Assembly (NCBI GenBank): GCA_036867785.1
Contig: CP145425.1
Span: forward strand, 62,001-126,000
Direction: 5' to 3'
Length of the DNA: 64,000 nucleotides
DNA from: Plasmodiophora brassicae
Lineage: Eukaryota
Numbering within the stretch: position 1 is the stretch's first letter; every line of letters starts with the position of its first letter. A program made the position numbers and the translations under genes. Positions 5,646 to 64,000 of the stretch are shown one piece after another. The notes beneath the pieces were generated by a model. It was not told the origin of the DNA. It saw nothing but the letters and a program-made list of their open reading frames with translations, and searched no databases.

Positions 5646-6140
5646 AGCGACAACACGCACAGCCGGTGCCGACCTTCCACATGTCGATGTTTGGCCCACC
5701 CTCCAGGACCGTGTCCGTGAAGGACCTACTGGGGAAACTGCCCAGTTCTGAGCACGACATGGTCTGCTCGACCTGCTCACAACAGACACGGCACACGCGA
5801 GTAGTGGTGTACACCAGCTCGTTGGCAGCCCGCTGGTGCGGTACCGTCGTCATAGGCCGCGTCACTTTGCCGTTTTCGATCGATGCAAGCGTTGGCTTAC
5901 CTTCAGGGCGTTCCCTGAATTGTCGTCATCCCATTGCATTGCAATAACGACGGCGGGCTGCCATCGAGCTGGTGTACACCACTACTCGCGTGTGTCGTGT
6001 CTGTTGTGCGCGGGTCGAGCAGACCATGTCGTACTCAGAATTGATCAGTGTCCCCAGTAGGTCCTTCACGGACACGGTCCTGGAGGGTGGGCCAAACATC
6101 GACATGTGGAAGGTCGGCACCGGCTGTGCGTATTGTCGCT
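5646..6140. repeat. Long inverted repeat: arms 5646-5833 and 5953-6140, spacer ~119 bp
   Basis: Arm 2 is the reverse complement of arm 1 (~10 mismatches by eye over 188 bp); both encode QPVPTFHMSMFGPPSRTVSVKDLLG in opposite orientations. Confidence 0.96.
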
Positions 6141-46511: not shown

Positions 46512-47119
46512 TCATGTCGTGTGCAATATATGCTGCTGCACAGCATTGCCCCAATGCGTCCGCGGGTCAGCTGGTTGATCAGGCGCCCGCAGCACCTCGA
46601 ACCTTGTGCATTAAGAACATGCAACGGGGACACCGCGCATTGGCAACGATTTCAGCCGGCATCCAGGGCACCGGCGGCGCCCAGCGGTTTTACCTGCTTC
46701 GAGTTCACGACTGCGCATGACATCGCGCCCCACATCGGGCGCTTCCGAAGGCAGCGAACGTTGGCCGAGACATGGGCAATTCGCGTGTCCACGCGTCGAA
46801 ACGTTTCCCAGCGGTCACGAGCTGGCGAAACCGCCCACCCGAGATGTCAACGCGTCGTAACAGACACCGGGCCAACGGAATCGGTTGCCGTCAAGCGCAC
46901 TCGTCCAACGTTGTCGACAGCGGAAACGGTGCGCATTGTGGCTACCTTCGCTTCGCACAACTGGATACGGCGAGTGCTCCCACAGCGATTGTGGCATCGC
47001 GCGGCAACTAGATTCTAGCATTGACGACGTCAGCGCGGAGCATGCTCAATGAGGAGCTCGGTCAAGAAACAGGTCCAGGGGAACCGCACTGCCAATCGAC
47101 GGTGCGAGAACTGTGTTCA

Positions 47120-48599
47120 TCAGGCGCGTTCATGACGAGCCCGGTACAGGCGGGCCACCGCATGCAAAGGCAACGCCGCGGTGGCATTGATCCGAGCCAG
47201 GAACTCTGGCGAGAACTTGTCCTGGTTCACGCTAACGCCTTCGACGAACTTGTAGGCGGTGAACGCCATCATCCAGGCAACCAGGCGTCGTCGTTTCCTG
47301 GTCGCATGAGACGTGTGCCGCCCTTTGATGTGAAGCGTGTTGGTGAAAGTTGCCTGCAGGTAACTGTAAAACTGCCCTGCAATACCGTCCAACTTGCGGC
47401 CGCTGGCGTGCACCATGTTGAGCGGCGTGTACTGCCCGTCGCGCAGATCGTCGTCGATGCCCGTCAGGTCGTTCAGTAGCTGGGCGACCGTCCCGAAATG
47501 CGCCGCGAAACTCGCCTCGTTGTCGTGGACGTTGCCCAGCGTTAGGTAGGCATCGCACAGGGCCGACAAGGCGCCTTTCCGCATGGTGACCTCCCATACG
47601 GCCCGGAAACCAGGCACAGGCGCGCCGTGACGCGGCCCGCCGAATTGCACCTGGGAATCCTTCTGCGCCTGCAACAGCTCGCCCATCACTCGGTACGTGA
47701 CCGGGAACCGTGCACGCGGCCAGTCCTGTTCTATCAGGCGGAACATGCGCCAGACCTACAGATGAAGCGCAACGTTCAGGGGAGGGAAAACGGCTCCGGT
47801 GAATGTGGTCGCGTACGTCCACTTCGTAGTCGAAGATTGGCGTCGAGTCGCCTTGCGATACCTGCCTGGCGAAACGCTGCAGGAAGGATTTCCGCTGCGA
47901 CGCTGGCAGCGCCGTGCTGTCCACGATGTCGTCGGTCAGCGGGTACAGCAGGCTGAAGGCGGCAACGGAGCGGGTGACGCGCATTGGGACCCCGGCCAGC
48001 GCCTGCATCCACAACATGGACCTCGCGTTCATGCCCGCACGACGCAGGTCGCTAGCCGACATGGTCGGGACGAGCGCCTTGGCGATCCTGTTGAACTCTT
48101 CCGTCTTCTGCGTCATCTCGACGCCCAGGTCCATCGCGACGGGTTCGCGACGGGCGCGACGCTGGCTGCGGGATGCAGGAGCCGGCGCCGGGCGCGTGAA
48201 CAGCGTCGTCAGAACTGGGCGGATCGCCTCCCACGCTTCGTTTCCGCTCCTGTTGCTCGCGGAACCGGATTGGACGGCAATGTTAATCTTCGCCATGACG
48301 GCGTCTTGGTCTGACGGCGACAGATGGCTCTGCGTCCAGGGCAGGTGCTGGCCAGGTACGACCCCGCCCGAGCAGTAATCACCGGACGGCTCGAGCAGCG
48401 GGATGGCCACGATGCCACGATCCCCGAGCATCCTGGTCGGCGACGTGAACGTTGACCGCAAATCGTGCCCCTGCGGCGCTGACGAAAGGTAGGCGGGCGG
48501 CCCCCACACAACGTCGGCAGCGGGGGCACCTCGCGCGCCAACCATGCAGATGCATACGATCGCGCAGACGGCCGCGCGTAACCCCATGGTCGTACCCAT
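47120..48599 (-). CDS. Predicted secreted class I isoprenoid/terpene synthase-fold protein (intron 47756-47816)
   Basis: Signal peptide MGLRAAVCAIVCICMVGARG; FSLLYPLTDDIVD (DDxxD); KGALSALCD; QLLNDLTGIDDDLRDG. Confidence 0.75.
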
Positions 48600-48828
48600 C
48601 CGCAGCACGTTCACACGGAGGCTCGCAGCGCGGTCCGGTCGCTGCTCGACTATTGCTGGAGGACGACGACGCCGTGCTGTTCCCGGGGACACGCCCAAAT
48701 GCAGCTCCTGGAGCCGCGCACCACGGCAGTTCCATAGTTGGACCAGCAGGCAGCAGCGGGTACCCTAGCCGAAGCACGCCGGACGAACGCGTACAAGTCG
48801 TCGGCAGGCTGTATTCAGCGTCAGGTGC

Positions 48829-49236
48829 CTACGCTGGGAGCGTCCTCGAGCGACGACCGGCTGGACGGACGACTGGGCGGTCCAGGTGCGGCAATAACGT
48901 CTCCGCACCGGTCGTCGCACACGTCGCTTCCGACTGGTTCTCGGCGGATGCTTCCTCGGGCGACGCGTCCGACACGACCGCCAGGCGTCGTTTGCTCTTG
49001 ATCAGAGCCATGGCGTTAGGGGCCGTCAGTGGTCCCGACAACATGGCCGGGTTCAGGTTCAGGCGCGCCTGCAGGTCGGCGATCTTCCCGCTGGGCTTCT
49101 TCATCGTCAATGACGACGACATCTCAGTCTGTTTCGGTGGCTGGGCTGTGGTGACGACCGTGGTCTGTTCTTCTGACGATGCCTCCGACTTGACAATGGC
49201 CGATACGACGAATAGAGGCCGTGTAGTGTCGGCCAT
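48829..49236 (-). CDS. Small disordered CapZIP/FAM21-like protein with a capping-protein-interaction-like motif
   Basis: KIADLQARLNLNPAML followed by LPHLDRPVVRPAGRRSRT. Confidence 0.55.
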   Translation of the reverse strand: MADTTRPLFVVSAIVKSEASSEEQTTVVTTAQPPKQTEMSSSLTMKKPSGKIADLQARLNLNPAMLSGPLTAPNAMALIKSKRRLAVVSDASPEEASAENQSEATCATTGAETLLPHLDRPVVRPAGRRSRTLPA

Positions 49237-49386
49237 TGGCCAACCCACGACTGCGCAACAATGAGCGCCATGTCGGCATCCAACAAGGCTAGCAGCGTCT
49301 GCCCAAACGGGAGAGGCTTATACGCGCGCTCCCGTCGTCTGGCCGTTATATGTGTATGAAGCCGTCGCGGATCGCCCGCGCATGCT

Positions 49387-49778
49387 GCCGGTCCTGCCCG
49401 ACGGCCCAGATCACGCGCTTCTCCGCAGGGACGTCGCACATGCAGGTCTTTCGGGAGGCTGAGGCTTGCCGGCCTCCATGTACCGTGCGAACGGTGCAAG
49501 AGCGTCGGCACCATCCGAAGTAGATACTCGCCGGAGATGTTCGCCTTGCAGCAGCATGCTGGCGAGCTCTCGTAACCTGCTGGCAGCTTATCAGCCCGCA
49601 AGTGTGGCTGGGCAGGCTTCGGGTCCGGTGCATGAGCACAGAGGTAGCGATATCCGTCCATGGCCGTGGGCTCGGAGCCGACCCGCGTGCGAACGCAGGC
49701 CGGCATCCTCCGCCGCCCGAAAGACGTGCATGTGCGACCCCTGGGGGAACATTGCCTGGTCAGTCTGGCAGGACCGGC
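49387..49778. repeat. Imperfect inverted repeat (49387-49475 / 49697-49778) enclosing scrambled copies of the 51.2-51.6 kb sequence
   Basis: gccggtcctgcc...gtcgcacatgca.gtctttcggg...gccggcct and its reverse complement. Confidence 0.85.
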
Positions 49779-49847
49779 GCCTGCGGTTCGCCGGTGACGG
49801 CAGCAGCACCAGACGCCATCCGCGACGGATCGACCAGACCAAAATCA

Positions 49848-50120
49848 CCCAGAGGACCCGCGAGGGTCTTAGGCCATTCTAATGTATTCACCCGTTGTTC
49901 AGGCGGCGAATAAAGGCTGGGCAACGCCCGGCGTCGATTGGGAGCGATGCCGGGTCAGCGGCGCAGTGCGTACCATCACCTTCTGCCCGTGGCGACTGGT
50001 CATCGCCGTCGACCCGACATCGCTCCCAAGCGACGCCGGGCGTCGCCTAGCATTCATTCGCCGCCTGAACAACGGGTGAATACATGAGAATTGCCTAAGA
50101 CCCTCGCGGGGTCCTCTGGG
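49848..50120. repeat. Inverted repeat/hairpin, arms 49848-49963 and 50004-50120, ~40 bp loop
   Basis: cccagaggacccgcgagggtcttagg...atgtattcacccgttgttcaggcggcgaat pairs with attcgccgcctgaacaacgggtgaatacat...cctaagaccctcgcggggtcctctggg. Confidence 0.95.
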
Positions 50121-51154
50121 AGGTTCTCTGCTGAAGGGACGCAGCGTGCGGATGGAGCGGTCCCGGGCACCGCGCCCGGGCGCCGCGCCGCGCTCTGCCG
50201 ATCGAGATCCGCCCGCGGGTCCCGCGTCAGATATCTCGTGTGGGAGTCGAGCGCAACGACGATCTGACTGACGACCACTGCTCCACGGACTCCGTGAAAC
50301 AGCGTGCTTCTACTATTAGGACGAGCTCCATAGATTTCTACGGGCGCCCGCTCCATCTACTCTCCAAGACAATGACATACTGCTGAGTATTGAGTCGGAG
50401 GCGGCCGACTCGACGACGCTGCCATGCATCATGCCGACCTGGCAGGATCCAACCTTCCGGTTGTCCGATCGCCAGCACCGGTGAATGCACGTGCTGGGTA
50501 CGGTGATCCGGGCAACCGTTGCCAAGTGCCTGCGCGGGGTGTCGTTGTCGATTTCGGCCCAGCGCCGCTGGCCGGCCCGGTCTGCACTGATCTGCAGAAC
50601 GAGCAGGACAACCAGGCTGCCGCCGTCGCCGTCGCCGCTGCCGAAGCCGTTGTCGAGCTAGTCCGCGTCCAACATGATGGGGACCGCCGCGTCGACCTTC
50701 TGACCAGGCTGGTGCCGACCGCCCTGCTGTTGATGCTCATCTCGTTCGTCGCGGACGAGCTCGCGCCCACGCCAGGCCCGCATCGACGCCGCCGAACCGG
50801 ACCGCCATGGTCCTTCCCGCTGCCAAATACGGCGACAACGCGCAAGGTCAGCCGCCGCCCGGCCGCGGTGGCACCCTCCGTCGTAAACGCCGCTACCTCA
50901 AGCCGTTCCCCCACGCCCCTCAACCACCGGCGTGCTGCGCCGCGCCCGGGCCCACGTCCCCCTGTGACGGCGCCTCTATCCGACGCAGCACGGCGCCTAT
51001 CGCCTCGGGCACCCTGCGTGCGCGCCGAGCACCGCACCGGCACAGTGCGTATCATCCATCACGTGCTCATTGCGACCGGCATCGCCTGTCGCCCTACGCT
51101 GCAGCGTCAGCTGTGCCAGGTGCTGTCCAGCGTTGTTTATTCTCGAATCTGCCG

Positions 51155-51647
51155 CGCCGGCGAACCGCCCCCAACGGTCCTGCCCGACCGCCATCATGCG
51201 CTTCCCTCCAGGGTCGCATATGCCAGGGTTCAGGGCGCCCGAGGTCGCCGGCCTGCAGGTACCGTGCGAACGGTGCAAGCGGGTCGGCACCGTTCGGCTC
51301 GCCTCCGAGCCGAAGGCTCTGGACGGGTACCGGTACCTGTGCGCACACGCACCGGACCCGAGCTCGCCCAGCCGCACTTCCGGCCCGCCGACCTGCCGGA
51401 GGGCCTCGAGCGCTCGCCTGCAGCCTGCTGCAAAGCGAAGCGCTCCAGCGAGCACTGCATGTCATGGGTCGGTGAACCCCGAAGCCTTGCTCAGGAAGCC
51501 ATGACATGCAGTACTCGCTGGAGCGCTTCGCTTTGCAGCAGGCCGCAAGCGAGCGCCGGAAGTGCGGCTGAGCGAGCTGCGGGTCCGGCGCATGCACGCA
51601 CAGGTACCGGTATCCGTCCATAGCCTTCGGCTCGGAGGCGAGCCGAA
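51155..51647. mobile_element. Degenerate transposase zinc-ribbon fragment (Merlin/IS1595-like) folded into a hairpin, arms 51293-51467 and 51499-51647
   Basis: VPCERCKRVGTVRLASEPKALDGYRYLC...CCKAKRS with a frameshift; the second half is repeated in reverse orientation. Confidence 0.5.
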
Positions 51648-52429
51648 TTGCGTTGGATCATCGGCTGCTCGATTGTCACGACACGTCGGCCTAGCTCATC
51701 AATCTTGGCCTCAAGCGCCGCAACACGAGCTGTCGAGTCGGCCTCGGGTACGTCTCCATCGGCCGGGTTTCGCTGGCAGAGGGTCGGCCGCGTCGAGCCG
51801 GGCGTACAGGTCCTGGATCATCTGACGCAGTTCAGCGTTCTCGGCTTCGAGTGCCGCGATACGTGTTCGTAGTCCGTCATCGCTGCTGTCTCCTCGTTTG
51901 TCGTCAGGTGGGACATCCTCCGCCTCGTCCACTGGGCTTTTGTTCGTTGCCTCGGCCGCGCGCATGCATCGCGGCCGACTTCTGCTTCCTCGCCTTCGAC
52001 GGCTCCAGCCACTTCGCCGCCAGTTGGGAGCCCAGTCGGATCAGCTCCGGGCCACGCGCTCAGCTCCGACCTTCTTGCCACACGCGTTCGTTGCACATGT
52101 ACCGGGGGGGGCGTCTTCGTACCCGGCCTCGGTCCGGATGTCGAGGCGGCCGACGGCGCCGTATGACGCCTGCACGCAAATTGGGTGCAACCCGACCTTG
52201 TTCGCGACCTGGAACGCGAACATGTGCGTGTCCATCGCGTAGTGCGACTTGTGACTGCTGCAGAGTGTTCCGCCAGTGGAGGCTCCCGGGCACGTTCGGC
52301 GGCTCGCGGTGGTAGTGGCATCGATGGATCTTCGACGTCAGGCTGGGCCCCCTCCTTGATCCGTGACTCGGGTGCTCCCTCGGCTTCAATCGGCTTGCCG
52401 GCGTCAAGGTCCTCGATAATGGCGTGGTC

Positions 52430-52816
52430 GTCTTCGACTTCCCGTACGGGCGACGACGTCAGGATGACCACCGAAGTGTCAGACTTGTCGTCGCCTTCCT
52501 GCGCACGGTCGTTCTGCCACATTGTCAGGTGACGAACCACGTGATCCAGCGGGGCATACTGCCGGAAGGGACGAGGTTCGTCGTATTCGCCCGGGCACAT
52601 TTCAAGTGCCCAACACGCGTCGCGTACCTGATTTCAGGCCTTGAACCTCGCCAGGAAGTCGGGCGGCACCGACCGCAGCTTCTCGGCGCCCGCGGCTGCA
52701 CCGGGCCTCGCGGCGTCCAAAGACGTCGGTTGGCGTCGGCCGCCGGCGGCCTTGACCGGGGGCTTCGGCATCGCCCCGCCGCGCCCGACCGCCCTTGTCC
52801 CAACCTACTTGACGTA
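52430..52816 (-). pseudogene. Inverted partial duplicate of the 5' end of the dsRBD gene (copy of ~53883-54320)
   Basis: 52640-52816 is a near-identical reverse complement of 53883-54059; RQYAPLDHVVRHLTMWQND..VILTSSP matches RRYAPLDDRVRHLMLWENE..MILTSSP. Confidence 0.9.
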
Positions 52817-53872
52817 AGTGTATTTACACACGTTAATGCGGCGAATGCAACGAACTGGCCGTTGCGGCTGCAGCTGGATCAGTGATCCGGCGCAGGGGAC
52901 GAAGGTGAGGGCGGTGCTTGATCACGGACGCGCTCCGTGGCGGCCGCTATTTCAGGGCGGATGCCATCTCGGCGACGACGGCGCTGTGGGCTTGGGCACG
53001 TCGATGATGCAGCGCGCCGGCGATGCCGCCTCGTCATTGCCGGGCACCGTCGGTGCAGCCAGCTTTGTGACGGTATCGCCAGGCGCGTACGTCTATCCCG
53101 CCGCGGCGACGCATCTGGCGACGGCGTCCAACACGATCGTCCTCGCCAGCTGGTAGGTCGCACGGCTGGTCGCAGCTTGCCTCGCTTCCTGACGGCGTCG
53201 TTGGTGCAGGGTACGGGACGGGTGCGACGGGCGATCCGGGCGCGTGCTTTGCGTGGCCCCGCTTGGACCGGCCGGGGGCGCTGTCACGATCGGCGTCGGC
53301 GGCATCGCGTTCCTGCTCAATGTCCTGCTCGTCACGGCCGCAGGCGCGGTCGGCGCCGTTCGCCTCGGCGGGCGCTCCGCTCTGCTGCTGGTCCTGGGGG
53401 TCCACCGGATGCTCCTCGTCGTGTTGCTGCTGGTCGACACCGGGCTGGGCGGCGGCTGACGCGCTGTCGGTCTCCGCGTGCTCGATGTCGTTCATGTCGG
53501 GGCCAGCTGCGCCTCCTTCGATACACTCGACCTGCTCCTGCATGGCTCGCTCGGCCGCCAGCACGGCCGTTCGCGCCGCCTGATTGTCCGGGTCGCCCAT
53601 CAGCGGGGCCGTTGTCCAACGCGGCCCGGCCGCCGAACGACGCGGGGGGGGGGGGGGGACTTGTAAAGTGTATTAACACGCTGAAGCGCCGAGCGCAACG
53701 AACCGGTCGTTGTGTCAGGAGCTGGATCGGCGATCCAGCTCCTGACGCAGCGACCTGGTCGTTGCGTCCGCCGCCTCAGCGTGTTTAATACACTTTACAA
53801 GTCCCCCCCTGCAACGACCAGCTCGTTGCACTCGTCGCGTCAGCGTGTTAAATACACTTAACAAGTCCCCCC
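52816..53872. mobile_element. ~1.06 kb non-autonomous TIR-type element with repeated terminal units and an internal acidic ORF (53034-53600, minus strand)
   Basis: Unit GGGGGGACTTGT(A/T)AAGTGTATT..ACACGCTGA forward at 53652, inverted ending 53809 and 53872, truncated forward at 52816; central hairpin caggagctggatc-ggc-gatccagctcctg. Confidence 0.65.
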
Positions 53873-53927
53873 CTGTAATCCCTACGTCAAGTAGGTCGGG
53901 ACAAGGGCGGTCGGGCGCGGCGGGGCG

Positions 53928-56387
53928 ATGCCGAAGCCCCCGGTCAAGGCCGCCGGCGGCCGACGCCAACCGACGCCTTCGGACGCCGCGAGGCCCGGTG
54001 CAGCCGCGGGCGCCGAGAAGCTGCGGTCGGTGCCGCCCGACTTCCTGGCGGGGTTCAAGGCAGCGCAGCGCGAGGGGAATCGCCCCACGTGCCCGCGCTT
54101 CCTGACATCAGGTACGTTGATGCTGGACCAGCGTCGGTCATTGGAAGGGCGCTAGGGCGAGCACCAGCCGCATCTCAACCCGTGCCGACGATACGCACCC
54201 TTGGACGACAGGGTTCGTCACCTGATGCTATGGGAGAACGAGCGTGCTCGGCGGGCGCTTGAACGCGACGACGAGTCGGGACATATCAGTGATGATCCTG
54301 ACGTCGTCGCCGGAACACGGAGACGGATACGACCAGAAGAAGGCTGAAGGTACCGACGCCAATGCGATCATGGAACACGAACGGCCGGCCGGAGACGCCG
54401 CCCAAGAAGGATTCACGACCCCGATCGCCGACGACCCGCCGTCGGGAGCGACAGCGCGATCACACGAGTGGTTCAGTCGCCCACGGACTGCGCGGTCTCG
54501 CCCGGTGTCTCTGGTCGAGTCCGCGTCCCGTTCAACGGATGGTACAACCGTCGATGCTGACGCCGACCGGCGACGCCGTGCGCAGCGCGCTGGTCGCGCA
54601 GGTACGCGCGAAGCAAATCACATCGGTCAGGCTGCGGGACGGATCACTGTCGCGGCGCGTCACCTGACATCCCCTAGCAGGCGTTCGCTCTGCTGCATGC
54701 CTACACGCAGCTGCATGACAAGACGTCGGCCGTGTTCCAGTACACGATGGTCGACGGCCTGCACTGCGTGTCGATCATCGTGAAGGGCGCGGTCTGCGCG
54801 TCGGCCACAGCAGCGTCGAAGAAGCAGGCGAAGCTGATCGCCACCGAGAACTTCCTGCGGCAGGCCTGCCCCGAAGCGCTGGCGCTTCTGCAGCCGGCCT
54901 TGTCCCTGGCGTCGTCCAGTCCCGAGCCGCAGACCGGGTCTCCCGCCCCGGACGCGTTGCCAGCGGCCCCGCCACAGGTGCATCGATTCCGATGGCACCC
55001 TGTGGAGCCGCTGCGCCAGTCCACCCAGGTCGTGCACGATGCCGCACGTGGGGACCCGCTGGCCCCCATCGCACACGCCGTCGACATGGGCCACATCACA
55101 TCGCTATCCGACGCGCTGGACGACGTTGCCATGCGCCTTCACGGCTGCCTGCCGACGTTCGACGTGTCCCGGAGCGACGACGGCGACGAGTTCATCGTCC
55201 AGGTCCACGTTCGTGGCGTCCCGTTCGGAGCGGGTGCCAGCGCCAGCCGCGATCGCGCCCGGTCCCTGGCGATCGAAACCGCCCTGCGACAACTGGCGCC
55301 CACGATCGCCGCCCAGCTCGGCAAGCGCAACCGGGAACGTCGCCAGCAGGCGGCGTTGCCTGATGGGCGTCCCGTCGGGCGCTTTGCCCCAATGAACGGC
55401 GACGGGCGACCATCGGATCGTTGCGTTGACGGTGGGGCCGCTGATCGTTTCGCGATCGGTCACGTCGTGCGCCCCGCGCCCTGGTCCAATTTCTCGTCGA
55501 CGAACAAGTACGATGCACCGATCCGGTCGACGCTGGACGCGATCGGTTACGATCAGGGGCGCCGGTACGCCCAGGAGGACGCCCCCGCTGACCTGCCGAC
55601 GCGGGACCCGAAGCGGATCTGTCAACGCGTCCACGAGCCGGACGCGAACGCCTGCTCGCCGTCGCACGACCTCGGGCCATGGAATCCCCGACGTGGTGCG
55701 GTTAACGCCGATGGCAACGACGACGAGGATGATGATGTGCCTGACTGGGTGCGACGGGCTCCCCGGTATCCACCAGACAGCAGCAATGGTGCGATCGCAC
55801 AGGGCCCGCCGGTCGTCGTTCCTGTCGGTTCCGATGCCGACGACGCCAACGTGGACAAATCCGTGCCGATGACGCTCGACAGGTACGCGGCGCTCGACGT
55901 GGACTCGCTGGACCCCATCCTGCTCCAGTCCGACCTGCCGTTCGACCTTGGACCCGACGTACGGCACAAGACGCCCGTGTCGGCGCTTGGCGAGTTGCAC
56001 GACAAATTGTACGTCGCTCGCCGACTCGTTCATTCCCTGTAGACGCTGACCGTGTTTGGAACAGCATGCCCGCTGCATCGCTGTCGTACCGGGCGTCGAA
56101 CTCGGTGAGCTCGGCGCTGTCACGTCAGTTCACGTGCGATCTGGACCTCGGCCACCTGCACGTATCGGTAGGGTTCGCACAGTGCCGGGCGTCTCGTGAT
56201 GGCAGCGTTCGCTGACGATCCGCAGGCGTCCGTCAGCACGAACTCGAAGCACGCCAAGCACCATGCCGCCCAGAAGATGATCCAGCGCCTGTTGCCCAGC
56301 TGCACCAAGTACATCGACGTCATGCGCGTGCTGTCGAAACGATCGACCGTGGCGACGCTGGAAGGGTGGAGCGTGCCCGATAGATGA
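53928..56387 (+). CDS. Protein with three dsRNA-binding domains, DGCR8/Pasha-like; 5' exon structure uncertain
   Basis: LLHAYTQ...ASATAASKKQAKLIATENFL; PTFDV...FIVQVHVRGVPFGAGASASRDRARSLAIETAL; KTPVSALGEL...NSKHAKHHAAQKMIQRLLP. Confidence 0.8.
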
Positions 56388-63544: not shown

Positions 63545-64000
63545 TCGTCTTGACTTGTGCACAACGATAGACGAATTGCCAATTCTGGATGCGATGGGCC
63601 GCTCGGCACGACCTCAAAAGCATCATATCCCCTCCGAAGGGTACCGACGGACAGACGTCTACCGTAATAATACTACCACCATGGGAACATGAAATTGCAT
63701 AACGGTGACGAAATTTTTGCATAGCGGGGACATAATTTTTGCATGACGGGGAACAAATTGAAGGATGGCGAGGAACAATTGAATGGATCGCAGGGAAGAA
63801 ATGCGTGGATGAGTGGCCCAAAATAAATGGATCGTCTCCGTGCAGGCGAGATGGGCGAAGGTGAGGCCTCTTCATCTTCCGTTGCAGAACAACGTCACCT
63901 GAACAATAGCGGAGACACAGCCGACAACGATACGTGTGGAAAACCGTATCGCTGACGTACGTACCGTACCTTAAGGTATTCTGACTTCATATTCCGCGGC

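What the first reader, a model, noticed from the sequence alone, without database searches (positions are those of the whole stretch)
49340..54320. Five-kb cluster of nested fold-back repeats directly upstream of the dsRBD gene: candidate hairpin-RNA/small-RNA locus
Seen: at least five separate inverted repeats in 5 kb (49387-49778, 49848-50120, 51293-51647, 53652-53809 and 52640-52816/53883-54059), with ~80-180 bp imperfect arms and no convincing host gene between them. The rest of the window is packed with genes. Inference: transcription would give long bulged dsRNA made of transposon and gene fragments, like hpRNA/endo-siRNA loci, next to a gene whose product could bind such RNA.
Basis: partly seen in the sequence, partly recalled or inferred. 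Interest (0 to 1): 0.8.

Follow-up and report, generated by a model that had tools for sequence, protein, structure and literature searches.

The report
Hairpin microRNA cluster in clubroot parasite

Summary
All five inverted repeats are real and lie at the stated coordinates. They fold far better than shuffled sequence (z -7.6 to -23). They account for 9 of the 10 long inverted-repeat pairs in the whole window.

The window is Plasmodiophora brassicae. Table S8 of Zhang et al. 2026 (PMC13547706) lists Pb-miR198, Pb-miR199 and Pb-miR200 on Ctg_15. Their sequences match the window's minus strand exactly, inside three of the five fold-backs. Each lies in a well-paired stem of the minus-strand RNA.

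Contigs containing spliced RNA, from three studies, cover much of the region.

The palindrome at 49848-50120 and the 179-nt, 98% repeat pair at 52638-52816/53883-54061 are not in the paper's tables.

I found no transposase or gene-fragment origin. The two largest hairpins are diverged tandem copies of one older palindrome.

The neighbouring gene encodes a protein with three dsRNA-binding domains. Its long 5' leader seems to reach into one repeat arm, but no functional link is shown.

Verdict: a hairpin small-RNA gene cluster, largely already annotated.

The parts
49379..49803 (-). Fold-back A1, precursor of Pb-miR198. The outer stem is 49379-49475 with 49697-49785. The interior is homologous to the right arm of A2.
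   Evidence: With offset 61626, Table S8 precursor Ctg_15:111059-111383 maps to 49433-49757.
49433..49453 (-). Mature Pb-miR198, 21 nt, starting 5'-CGA. It lies on the 3' arm with 20 of 21 nt paired.
   Evidence: Exact match of its reverse complement on the + strand; fold of the minus strand.
49848..50120 (.). Palindrome B, with 107-nt arms 91% complementary and a 40-nt loop. It is not listed as a small-RNA locus. Diverged relatives exist elsewhere in the genome.
   Evidence: z -23.4. Absent from the Ctg_15 rows. Loose ends at 50031 and 50075 in X8 and X20.
51149..51292 (.). Segment 'a' of A2. It is homologous (78%, direct) to the left arm of A1 but lies outside the A2 stem.
51293..51647 (-). 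Fold-back A2, precursor of Pb-miR199. It forms a stem of about 150-175 bp per arm, and 8 of its 10 arm mismatches are G-U on the minus-strand RNA.
   Evidence: The S8 precursor Ctg_15:112922-113524 maps to 51296-51898.
51497..51517 (-). Mature Pb-miR199, on the 5' arm next to the terminal loop, with 19 of 21 nt paired.
52425..52865 (.). Left arm of inverted repeat C. The core 52638-52816 is 98% complementary to 53883-54061.
52920..53643 (.). Segment R in the loop of C. It is transcribed, shows 3-base periodicity, and has a second diverged copy elsewhere. Coding strand and function are unresolved.
   Evidence: (variant contigs, loose ends at 52920/52970/53643, adapter at 53632). No homologue of the minus-strand ORF.
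53652..53809 (-). Hairpin D, precursor of Pb-miR200. It consists of two inverted copies of a 64-78-nt unit. A third copy follows at 53811-53874 and a fourth lies at about 52808-52880.
   Evidence: The S8 precursor Ctg_15:115219-115488 maps to 53593-53862.
53689..53709 (-). Mature Pb-miR200, on the 3' arm with 18 of 21 nt paired.
53811..54335 (.). Right arm of inverted repeat C. From 54021 rightwards it is contiguous, in RNA contigs, with the spliced mRNA of the dsRBD gene.
48832..49236 (-). Annotated small protein gene (135 aa here). A1 lies 143 nt upstream of its ATG on the strand that gives Pb-miR198.
   Evidence: P0006: 134 aa, P. brassicae, 95% identical. RNA contigs 47740-49859 (X1) and 48791-49853 (X4) bridge the coding sequence and the hairpin.
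54539..56300 (+). Gene for a dsRNA-binding protein. GT..AG introns lie at 54625-54679, 56009-56064 and 56167-56224. It continues beyond 56300.
   Evidence: P0004: 557 aa, P. brassicae, 97% identical.

Best explanation
The region is a cluster of hairpin small-RNA genes of Plasmodiophora brassicae.

Shown:
- Five fold-backs lie in 5 kb.
- The region is transcribed.
- Three published 21-nt RNAs (Pb-miR198, -199 and -200, all beginning 5'-CGA) match the minus strand. Each lies inside a well-paired stem of fold-back A1, A2 or D.

Taken from the paper:
- The organism has no Dicer and no RNA-dependent RNA polymerase.
- Its Drosha-like RNase III, PbDRL, cuts long dsRNA into 21-nt pieces.
- Two Argonautes mediate silencing.

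Inferred:
- Minus-strand transcripts fold back on themselves. PbDRL dices the stems in 21-nt steps, and the products are loaded into PbAGO1/2.
- Without an RdRP, encoded inverted repeats such as these are the cell's way of making dsRNA.
- A1 and A2 are diverged direct tandem copies of one older, longer palindrome, and each has lost a different part. They now yield different mature RNAs.
- D is built from a short unit that is repeated four times locally.
- B and C are most likely further hairpin substrates, weaker or unlisted, of the same kind.
For: Identity of the organism: the neighbouring protein is 97% identical to a P. brassicae protein, and the small gene is 95% identical to another.

Table S8 of PMC13547706 (supplement read) gives the three miRNAs on Ctg_15 in the same order and spacing as A1, A2 and D. 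Their reverse complements match the window + strand with 0 mismatches at 49433-49453, 51497-51517 and 53689-53709. Chance expectation is 0.00-0.01.

In minus-strand folds, 20, 19 and 18 of the 21 nt are paired.

The same coordinate offset (61626) puts the paper's PHAS21-133 onto the only other long inverted repeat of the window, 5646-6140.

In A2, 8 of the 9 transition-type differences between the arms are G-U pairs on the minus-strand RNA (binomial p 0.039). The minus strand also folds 27 kcal/mol better.

Runs X1, X4 and X8 come from three studies. Their contigs skip three GT..AG introns of the dsRBD gene, so they contain spliced RNA. Those contigs cover all of A1, 51607-52678 and 53728-54050.

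Paper sections 2.2, 2.4 and Discussion report 21-nt phased small RNAs with 5'-C, PbDRL activity and the absence of RdRP.
Against: I saw only the paper's tables, not small-RNA reads. The miRNAs were called by ShortStack with a relaxed strand cut-off. The paper's northern blots were for Pb-miR002, -041 and -045 only, not these three.

B and C are in no table. If the offset is exact, the miR200 cluster ends at 53862, 21 nt short of the C core. This hints at few small RNAs from that arm, but the reasoning rests on my recollection of how ShortStack merges reads.

A1 folds 20 kcal/mol better on the + strand than on the miRNA's own strand. G-U asymmetry is absent in A1, B, D and C.

Pb-miR198 has no predicted target. 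The targets of Pb-miR199 and -200 are sums of weak miRanda sites.

Contigs cannot show the strand, the ends or the level of an RNA.
Confidence: 0.78

Rival explanations
1. The fold-backs are inert debris: decayed MITE-like or fold-back repeats and local rearrangements in a gene-poor gap. Any small RNAs are by-products of an RNAi system that dices whatever dsRNA appears, with no regulatory role.
For: Unit u of hairpin D occurs four times locally. B and segment R have diverged relatives elsewhere (loose ends). No convincing targets are predicted. A1 and C show no strand-specific G-U bias. The outer parts of the C arms have decayed to about 70%.
Against: No transposase domain was found, and I saw no target-site duplication at B by eye. 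A2 shows a G-U bias on the miRNA's strand. The 179-nt core of C is kept at 98% while its flanks are about 70%. This suggests conversion or constraint on pairing.
Confidence: 0.17
2. The palindromes are assembly or amplification chimeras.
For: De Bruijn contigs break inside A2, C and D, so those centres are not bridged by the pieces listed. Run X20 may be the sample the window came from.
Against: A DNA-type contig of X20 (no intron joints) runs through all of A1 and across the centre of B. RNA contigs of three other studies contain A1; one of these runs (X8) is of a diverged isolate, with 14 other letters and a 10-nt insertion in 49279-49880. The paper's PacBio assembly has hairpin precursors at matching spacing. 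It cannot be excluded that the window is that same assembly.
Confidence: 0.02

Closest known systems
Pb-miR198, Pb-miR199 and Pb-miR200 of P. brassicae isolate PbJS (Zhang et al. 2026, PMC13547706, Table S8)
   Same: They are these very loci. The mature sequences match exactly inside A1, A2 and D, in the same order and spacing on Ctg_15.
   Different: The paper lists them only in a supplementary table. A search of its main text for cluster, palindrome, inverted, hairpin, polycistron and Ctg turned up nothing about this locus. The clustering, the A1/A2 paralogy, the two unlisted fold-backs and the neighbouring genes are not described there.
Drosophila hpRNA / endo-siRNA loci (recalled from memory, no call)
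   Same: Long genomic inverted repeats are transcribed into hairpins with stems of a hundred or more base pairs and diced into about 21-nt RNAs. A2 has a stem of about 150-175 bp per arm, and C has a 179-bp core.
   Different: Here the nuclease is a Drosha-like RNase III, not Dicer-2 with Loquacious (paper). A dsRBD partner is not known.
Young plant MIRNA genes born by inverted duplication (Allen et al. 2004 model; recalled)
   Same: The hairpins are long, nearly perfect and lineage-specific with no relatives. The arms of C copy neighbouring sequence that is transcribed together with the dsRBD gene.
   Different: No founder or target gene was found for A, B or D. No small RNAs are shown for C.
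Drosha cleavage of hairpins in the DGCR8 mRNA leader (recalled)
   Same: A hairpin lies in the leader of an mRNA: A1 sits 143 nt upstream of a small gene's ATG, and the neighbouring gene encodes a dsRBD protein.
   Different: It is not shown that hairpin and coding sequence share one transcript. Pb-miR200 comes from the strand opposite to the dsRBD mRNA.
MITE-derived miRNA hairpins (recalled)
   Same: D is two inverted copies of a short repeated unit set back to back.
   Different: No target-site duplication was found and no family was shown beyond the local copies.

Membership tests
miRNA gene (hairpin-derived small RNA) | The mature RNA lies in the stem of a single-stranded fold-back with few unpaired bases. 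| tested here: met
   20, 19 and 18 of 21 nt are paired in minus-strand folds of A1, A2 and D.
miRNA gene (hairpin-derived small RNA) | Precise small-RNA reads are present, with a miRNA/miRNA* duplex and 2-nt 3' overhangs. | not testable with these tools
   I have only the paper's ShortStack call and Table S8. No small-RNA run was offered.
miRNA gene (hairpin-derived small RNA) | The fold-back is short (plant criterion of about 300 nt or less; recalled from memory). | tested here: not met
   D is 158 nt and meets it. A2 is 355 nt (listed precursor 603 nt) and A1 is 425 nt with a large interior. Those two look more like hpRNA loci.
miRNA gene (hairpin-derived small RNA) | Production depends on the RNase III enzyme (PbDRL). 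| not tested
   The paper shows this for Pb-miR002 only.
hpRNA / endo-siRNA locus | A long inverted repeat with highly complementary arms of about 100 nt or more. | tested here: met
   A2 91-95%, B 107 nt at 91%, C 179 nt at 98%.
hpRNA / endo-siRNA locus | Both arms lie on one transcript. | tested here: inconclusive
   RNA contigs pass through A1. They break inside A2, C and D, as assemblies do at palindromes.
hpRNA / endo-siRNA locus | Many phased siRNAs arise from both arms. | not testable with these tools
   The paper shows phasing genome-wide. No PHAS row falls in 49-54 kb.
MITE / fold-back transposon | Terminal inverted repeats are flanked by a target-site duplication. | tested here: not met
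   I saw no duplication at the ends of B by eye. The ends of D are hidden in a G run.
MITE / fold-back transposon | Many dispersed copies exist in the genome. | tested here: inconclusive
   No genome is held. There are no other copies in the window. Loose ends show at least one diverged relative of B and of R.
Autonomous transposon | A transposase or reverse-transcriptase domain is present. | tested here: not met
   0 of 39 ORFs in the gap reach a Pfam cut-off.

The most novel reading that the evidence does not exclude
The hairpins also act in cis. A1 sits in the leader of the 134-aa gene's mRNA. The D/C-right region sits in, or antisense to, the long leader of one of the organism's two three-dsRBD genes. 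Cutting by the Drosha-like enzyme would then both release a small RNA and destroy the message. That would give the RNAi machinery feedback control over a dsRNA-binding protein, as Drosha has over DGCR8 in animals.
Probability: 0.12. Interest if true: 0.6.

Novelty: already known. Interest (0 to 1): 0.3.

Why it matters
P. brassicae is a major crop pathogen with an unusual RNAi system: a Drosha-like enzyme, no Dicer and no RdRP. The 2026 paper says it remains unclear how siRNA precursors are made.

In this window, the three miRNA loci and the one PHAS locus that the paper lists wholly inside it each coincide with an encoded inverted repeat. This fits the simple answer that genomic fold-backs supply the dsRNA.

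The cluster is a compact test bed. It holds three listed hairpins, two unlisted ones and a tandem-duplicated pair whose mature products have shifted, all next to a dsRBD gene. The existence of small-RNA hairpins here is already in print.

Tried and rejected
- No whole genome is held for the window, so I could not count genome-wide copies.
- No RNA holder is listed on record. All 24 runs are Logan contigs and no small-RNA run was offered. I take X1, X4 and X8 to hold RNA only because their contigs skip GT..AG introns.
- Parts without cover (for example X4 bins 50110-51042) were given no meaning. Contig depths were not used to rank expression or to count copies.
- Look-ups by sequence in earlier findings, for D, B and R, found nothing.
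- Pfam on 40 ORFs gave only sub-threshold hits in the gap. The ORF in the left arm of C (P0003) has no homologue. The minus-strand ORF of R has none among 1.84 billion representatives.
- Rfam gave only mir-B6 on hairpin D, at 39.8 and 35.3 bits against a gathering score of 89. I treat that as a palindrome artefact. No tRNA was found.
- I first read the Table S9 'Tot score' values of 181-198 as near-perfect targets. I rejected that after Pb-miR212 showed scores stepping through about 185, 275, 380 and 460, which are sums of weak sites.
- I tried to decide whether the dsRBD gene is Pb09092 or Pb07475. No primers for either gene turned up in the search. Pb-miR063, listed against Pb07475, has no site with 3 or fewer mismatches in the window. 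Both results are uninformative.
- The header of the codon-periodicity table was mislabelled. I redid it and dropped the frame inferences made before that.
- The coding strand of R is unresolved. A low-depth + strand intron restores a 132-aa ORF. The minus strand holds a 188-aa acidic ORF in the same periodicity.
Full report
**Observation.**
- A1: 49379-49475 pairs with 49697-49785.
- B: 49857-49963 pairs with 50004-50110 (107 nt, 91%).
- A2: an outer pair 51293-51360/51580-51647 (91%) and an inner pair 51410-51467/51499-51556 (95%) form one long stem.
- D: 53652-53729/53731-53809.
- C: 52638-52816/53883-54061 (179 nt, 98%). It extends at about 70% to 52425-52865/53811-54335.

As RNA they fold far better than dinucleotide shuffles: z -7.56, -23.36, -20.44 and -18.37, with 0 shuffles as good in each case. 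In a scan of the whole window, 9 of 10 inverted-repeat pairs of 40 nt or more lie in 49.3-54.4 kb. D lies in the loop of C, so 'nested' is right.

**Organism and setting.** The window is GC-rich and eukaryotic; it carries Nckap1, a THOC3-like WD40 protein and peptidase M49. Earlier notes of this scan named the genome as Plasmodiophora brassicae. I confirmed that. The dsRBD protein next door is 97% identical to a P. brassicae protein of 557 aa. A small gene on the other side is 95% identical to another. No whole genome is held.

**What the fold-backs are.** Zhang et al. 2026 (PMC13547706) describe RNAi in this organism. I read the abstract, sections 2.2, 2.4, 4.5 and the Discussion, and parts of supplementary file 1. 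Their main points:
- The small RNAs are 21 nt, phased and 5'-C-biased.
- The paper lists 234 miRNAs and 435 phasiRNA-like (PHAS) loci.
- The organism has a Drosha-like RNase III (PbDRL), two Argonautes, no Dicer and no RdRP.

Table S8 lists Pb-miR198 (Ctg_15:111059-111383), Pb-miR199 (112922-113524) and Pb-miR200 (115219-115488). The reverse complements of the three mature sequences match the window + strand without mismatch at 49433-49453, 51497-51517 and 53689-53709. The chance expectation is 0.00-0.01. So all three are read from the minus strand, and they lie in A1, A2 and D.

In minus-strand folds, 20, 19 and 18 of their 21 nt are paired. An offset of 61626 maps the listed precursors to 49433-49757, 51296-51898 and 53593-53862. 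The same offset puts PHAS21-133 (67189-67801) on the only other long inverted repeat of the window, 5646-6140. That cross-checks the mapping.

B and C appear in none of the 26 Ctg_15 rows of Tables S6-S8.

**Transcription.** The runs offered were all Logan contigs, guessed to be RNA. Contigs of X1, X4 and X8 come from three studies and skip three GT..AG introns of the dsRBD gene, so they contain spliced RNA. X20 shows no such joints and reads through the introns, as DNA does.

The RNA contigs cover:
- 47740-49859 (X1) and 48791-49853 (X4), which bridge the small gene's coding sequence and all of A1;
- 49279-49880 (X8, a diverged isolate with 14 other letters and a 10-nt insertion);
- 51607-52678 (X1);
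- 53728-54050 (X1);
- the dsRBD mRNA from 54021 onwards.

Contigs of X4 and X8 begin at 48791 and 48788, where the DNA run goes on. That is a weak hint of a transcript end there. Contigs give neither strand nor level. The minus strand is inferred from the miRNA sequences.

The X20 contig 47000-50075 runs through A1 and across the centre of B, which argues against a chimera. Whether X20 or the paper's assembly is independent of the window I cannot tell.

**Origin.** I found no transposase or other domain: 0 of 39 gap ORFs reach a Pfam cut-off. The ORF in the left arm of C has no homologue, and neither does the minus-strand ORF of the C loop.

A1 and A2 are paralogues. Direct matches run 49389-49512 to 51175-51291 (78%) and 49596-49685 to 51556-51645 (80%). 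A weaker inverted match covers 308 nt at 68%. The simplest reading is a direct tandem duplication of one longer palindrome, after which each copy lost a different part:
- A1 keeps the outer stem. Its interior carries sequence homologous to A2's right arm.
- A2 keeps the inner stem. Its copy of A1's left arm lies unpaired outside it.

The mature RNAs come from non-homologous places. Neither miRNA has a site with 3 or fewer mismatches in the other copy.

In A2, 8 of the 10 arm mismatches are G-U on the minus-strand RNA and 1 is G-U on the plus strand (p 0.039). The minus strand also folds 27 kcal/mol better. This fits selection on the RNA of the miRNA's strand. The other hairpins show no such bias, and A1 folds better on the plus strand.

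D is two inverted copies of a 64-78-nt unit. Two further copies form the inner ends of the C arms. The C core differs at 4 of 179 positions while its flanks are about 70% alike. That suggests conversion or constraint on pairing.

**Neighbours.** A1 lies 143 nt upstream of the ATG of an annotated 134-aa gene, on the strand that gives Pb-miR198.

On the other side, the dsRBD gene (the annotated relative P0004 starts with MVQPSML, which the window encodes from about 54539) has at least two Pfam-detectable dsRBDs. By eye the annotated protein has a third at its C-terminus. The paper says the genome has two proteins with three dsRBDs each, Pb09092 and Pb07475, and that neither bound PbDRL in yeast two-hybrid. 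This gene is probably one of them, but I could not tell which.

RNA contigs continuous with its spliced mRNA reach 54021, inside the right arm of C. The leader may therefore be 500 nt or longer and include repeat sequence. An overlapping minus-strand transcript would give the same picture.

**Mechanism.** Minus-strand transcripts fold. PbDRL dices the stems into 21-nt RNAs, and these load into PbAGO1/2. The fold and the mature sequences are shown. The enzyme steps are taken from the paper and not tested for these loci.

Targets are unknown. Pb-miR198 has none predicted, and the predictions for Pb-miR199 and -200 are sums of weak sites.

Because the organism lacks an RdRP and the paper calls the source of siRNA precursors unclear, encoded fold-backs are a natural source of dsRNA.

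**Novelty.** Hairpin small-RNA loci in this organism are published, and three of these five are in the paper's table. The paper's text says nothing about this cluster, and two literature searches found no other paper on P. brassicae miRNA loci. What is new is the clustering, the paralogy, the position of A1 just upstream of a gene on the miRNA's strand, and the two unlisted fold-backs. These additions are modest.

I score the finding as confirmed, correctly interpreted in its core, and largely already known.

Noticed in passing
window 5646-6140: This is the only other long inverted repeat in the window (188-nt arms, 95%, 119-nt loop). With the same coordinate offset it coincides with the paper's phasiRNA-like locus PHAS21-133. 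At least this 'phased' locus is therefore a long hairpin, which fits an organism without RdRP.
   Followed up: partly
window 52920-53643: Segment R has a second, diverged copy elsewhere: two variant DNA contigs cover 53319-53467, and contigs run on into unlike sequence at 52920, 52970 and 53643. RNA contigs cover it. One RNA contig ends in sequencing adapter at 53632. A low-depth + strand GT..AG joint (53153-53209) restores a 132-aa ORF that looks to me like a membrane protein.
   Followed up: partly
window 48832-49236 (minus strand): This small annotated protein shares the motif KKPSGKIADLQARLNLNPAM with a 216-aa relative (P0007, 52% identical). In all four runs, contigs that share 49040-49102 run on into unlike sequence, so a paralogue exists elsewhere. 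There is a weak sub-threshold Pfam hit to CAP-ZIP_m (E 0.0017).
   Followed up: partly
PMC13547706 Table S8, part 4: All three miRNAs of this locus begin 5'-CGA. Counting by eye, 21 of the 179 rows shown in that part do so, several times more than a 5'-C bias alone would give. This may point to a preference in cutting or loading.
   Followed up: no
window about 63555-64000: With the same offset, PHAS21-134 (Ctg_15:125181-126030) starts here and runs off the end of the window. The part held contains no long inverted repeat.
   Followed up: partly
window 52638-52816 / 53883-54061: The 98% core of C carries a short ORF (MPKPPVKAAGGRR...) on the strand of the dsRBD mRNA. All 4 differences between the arms are transitions.
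   Followed up: no
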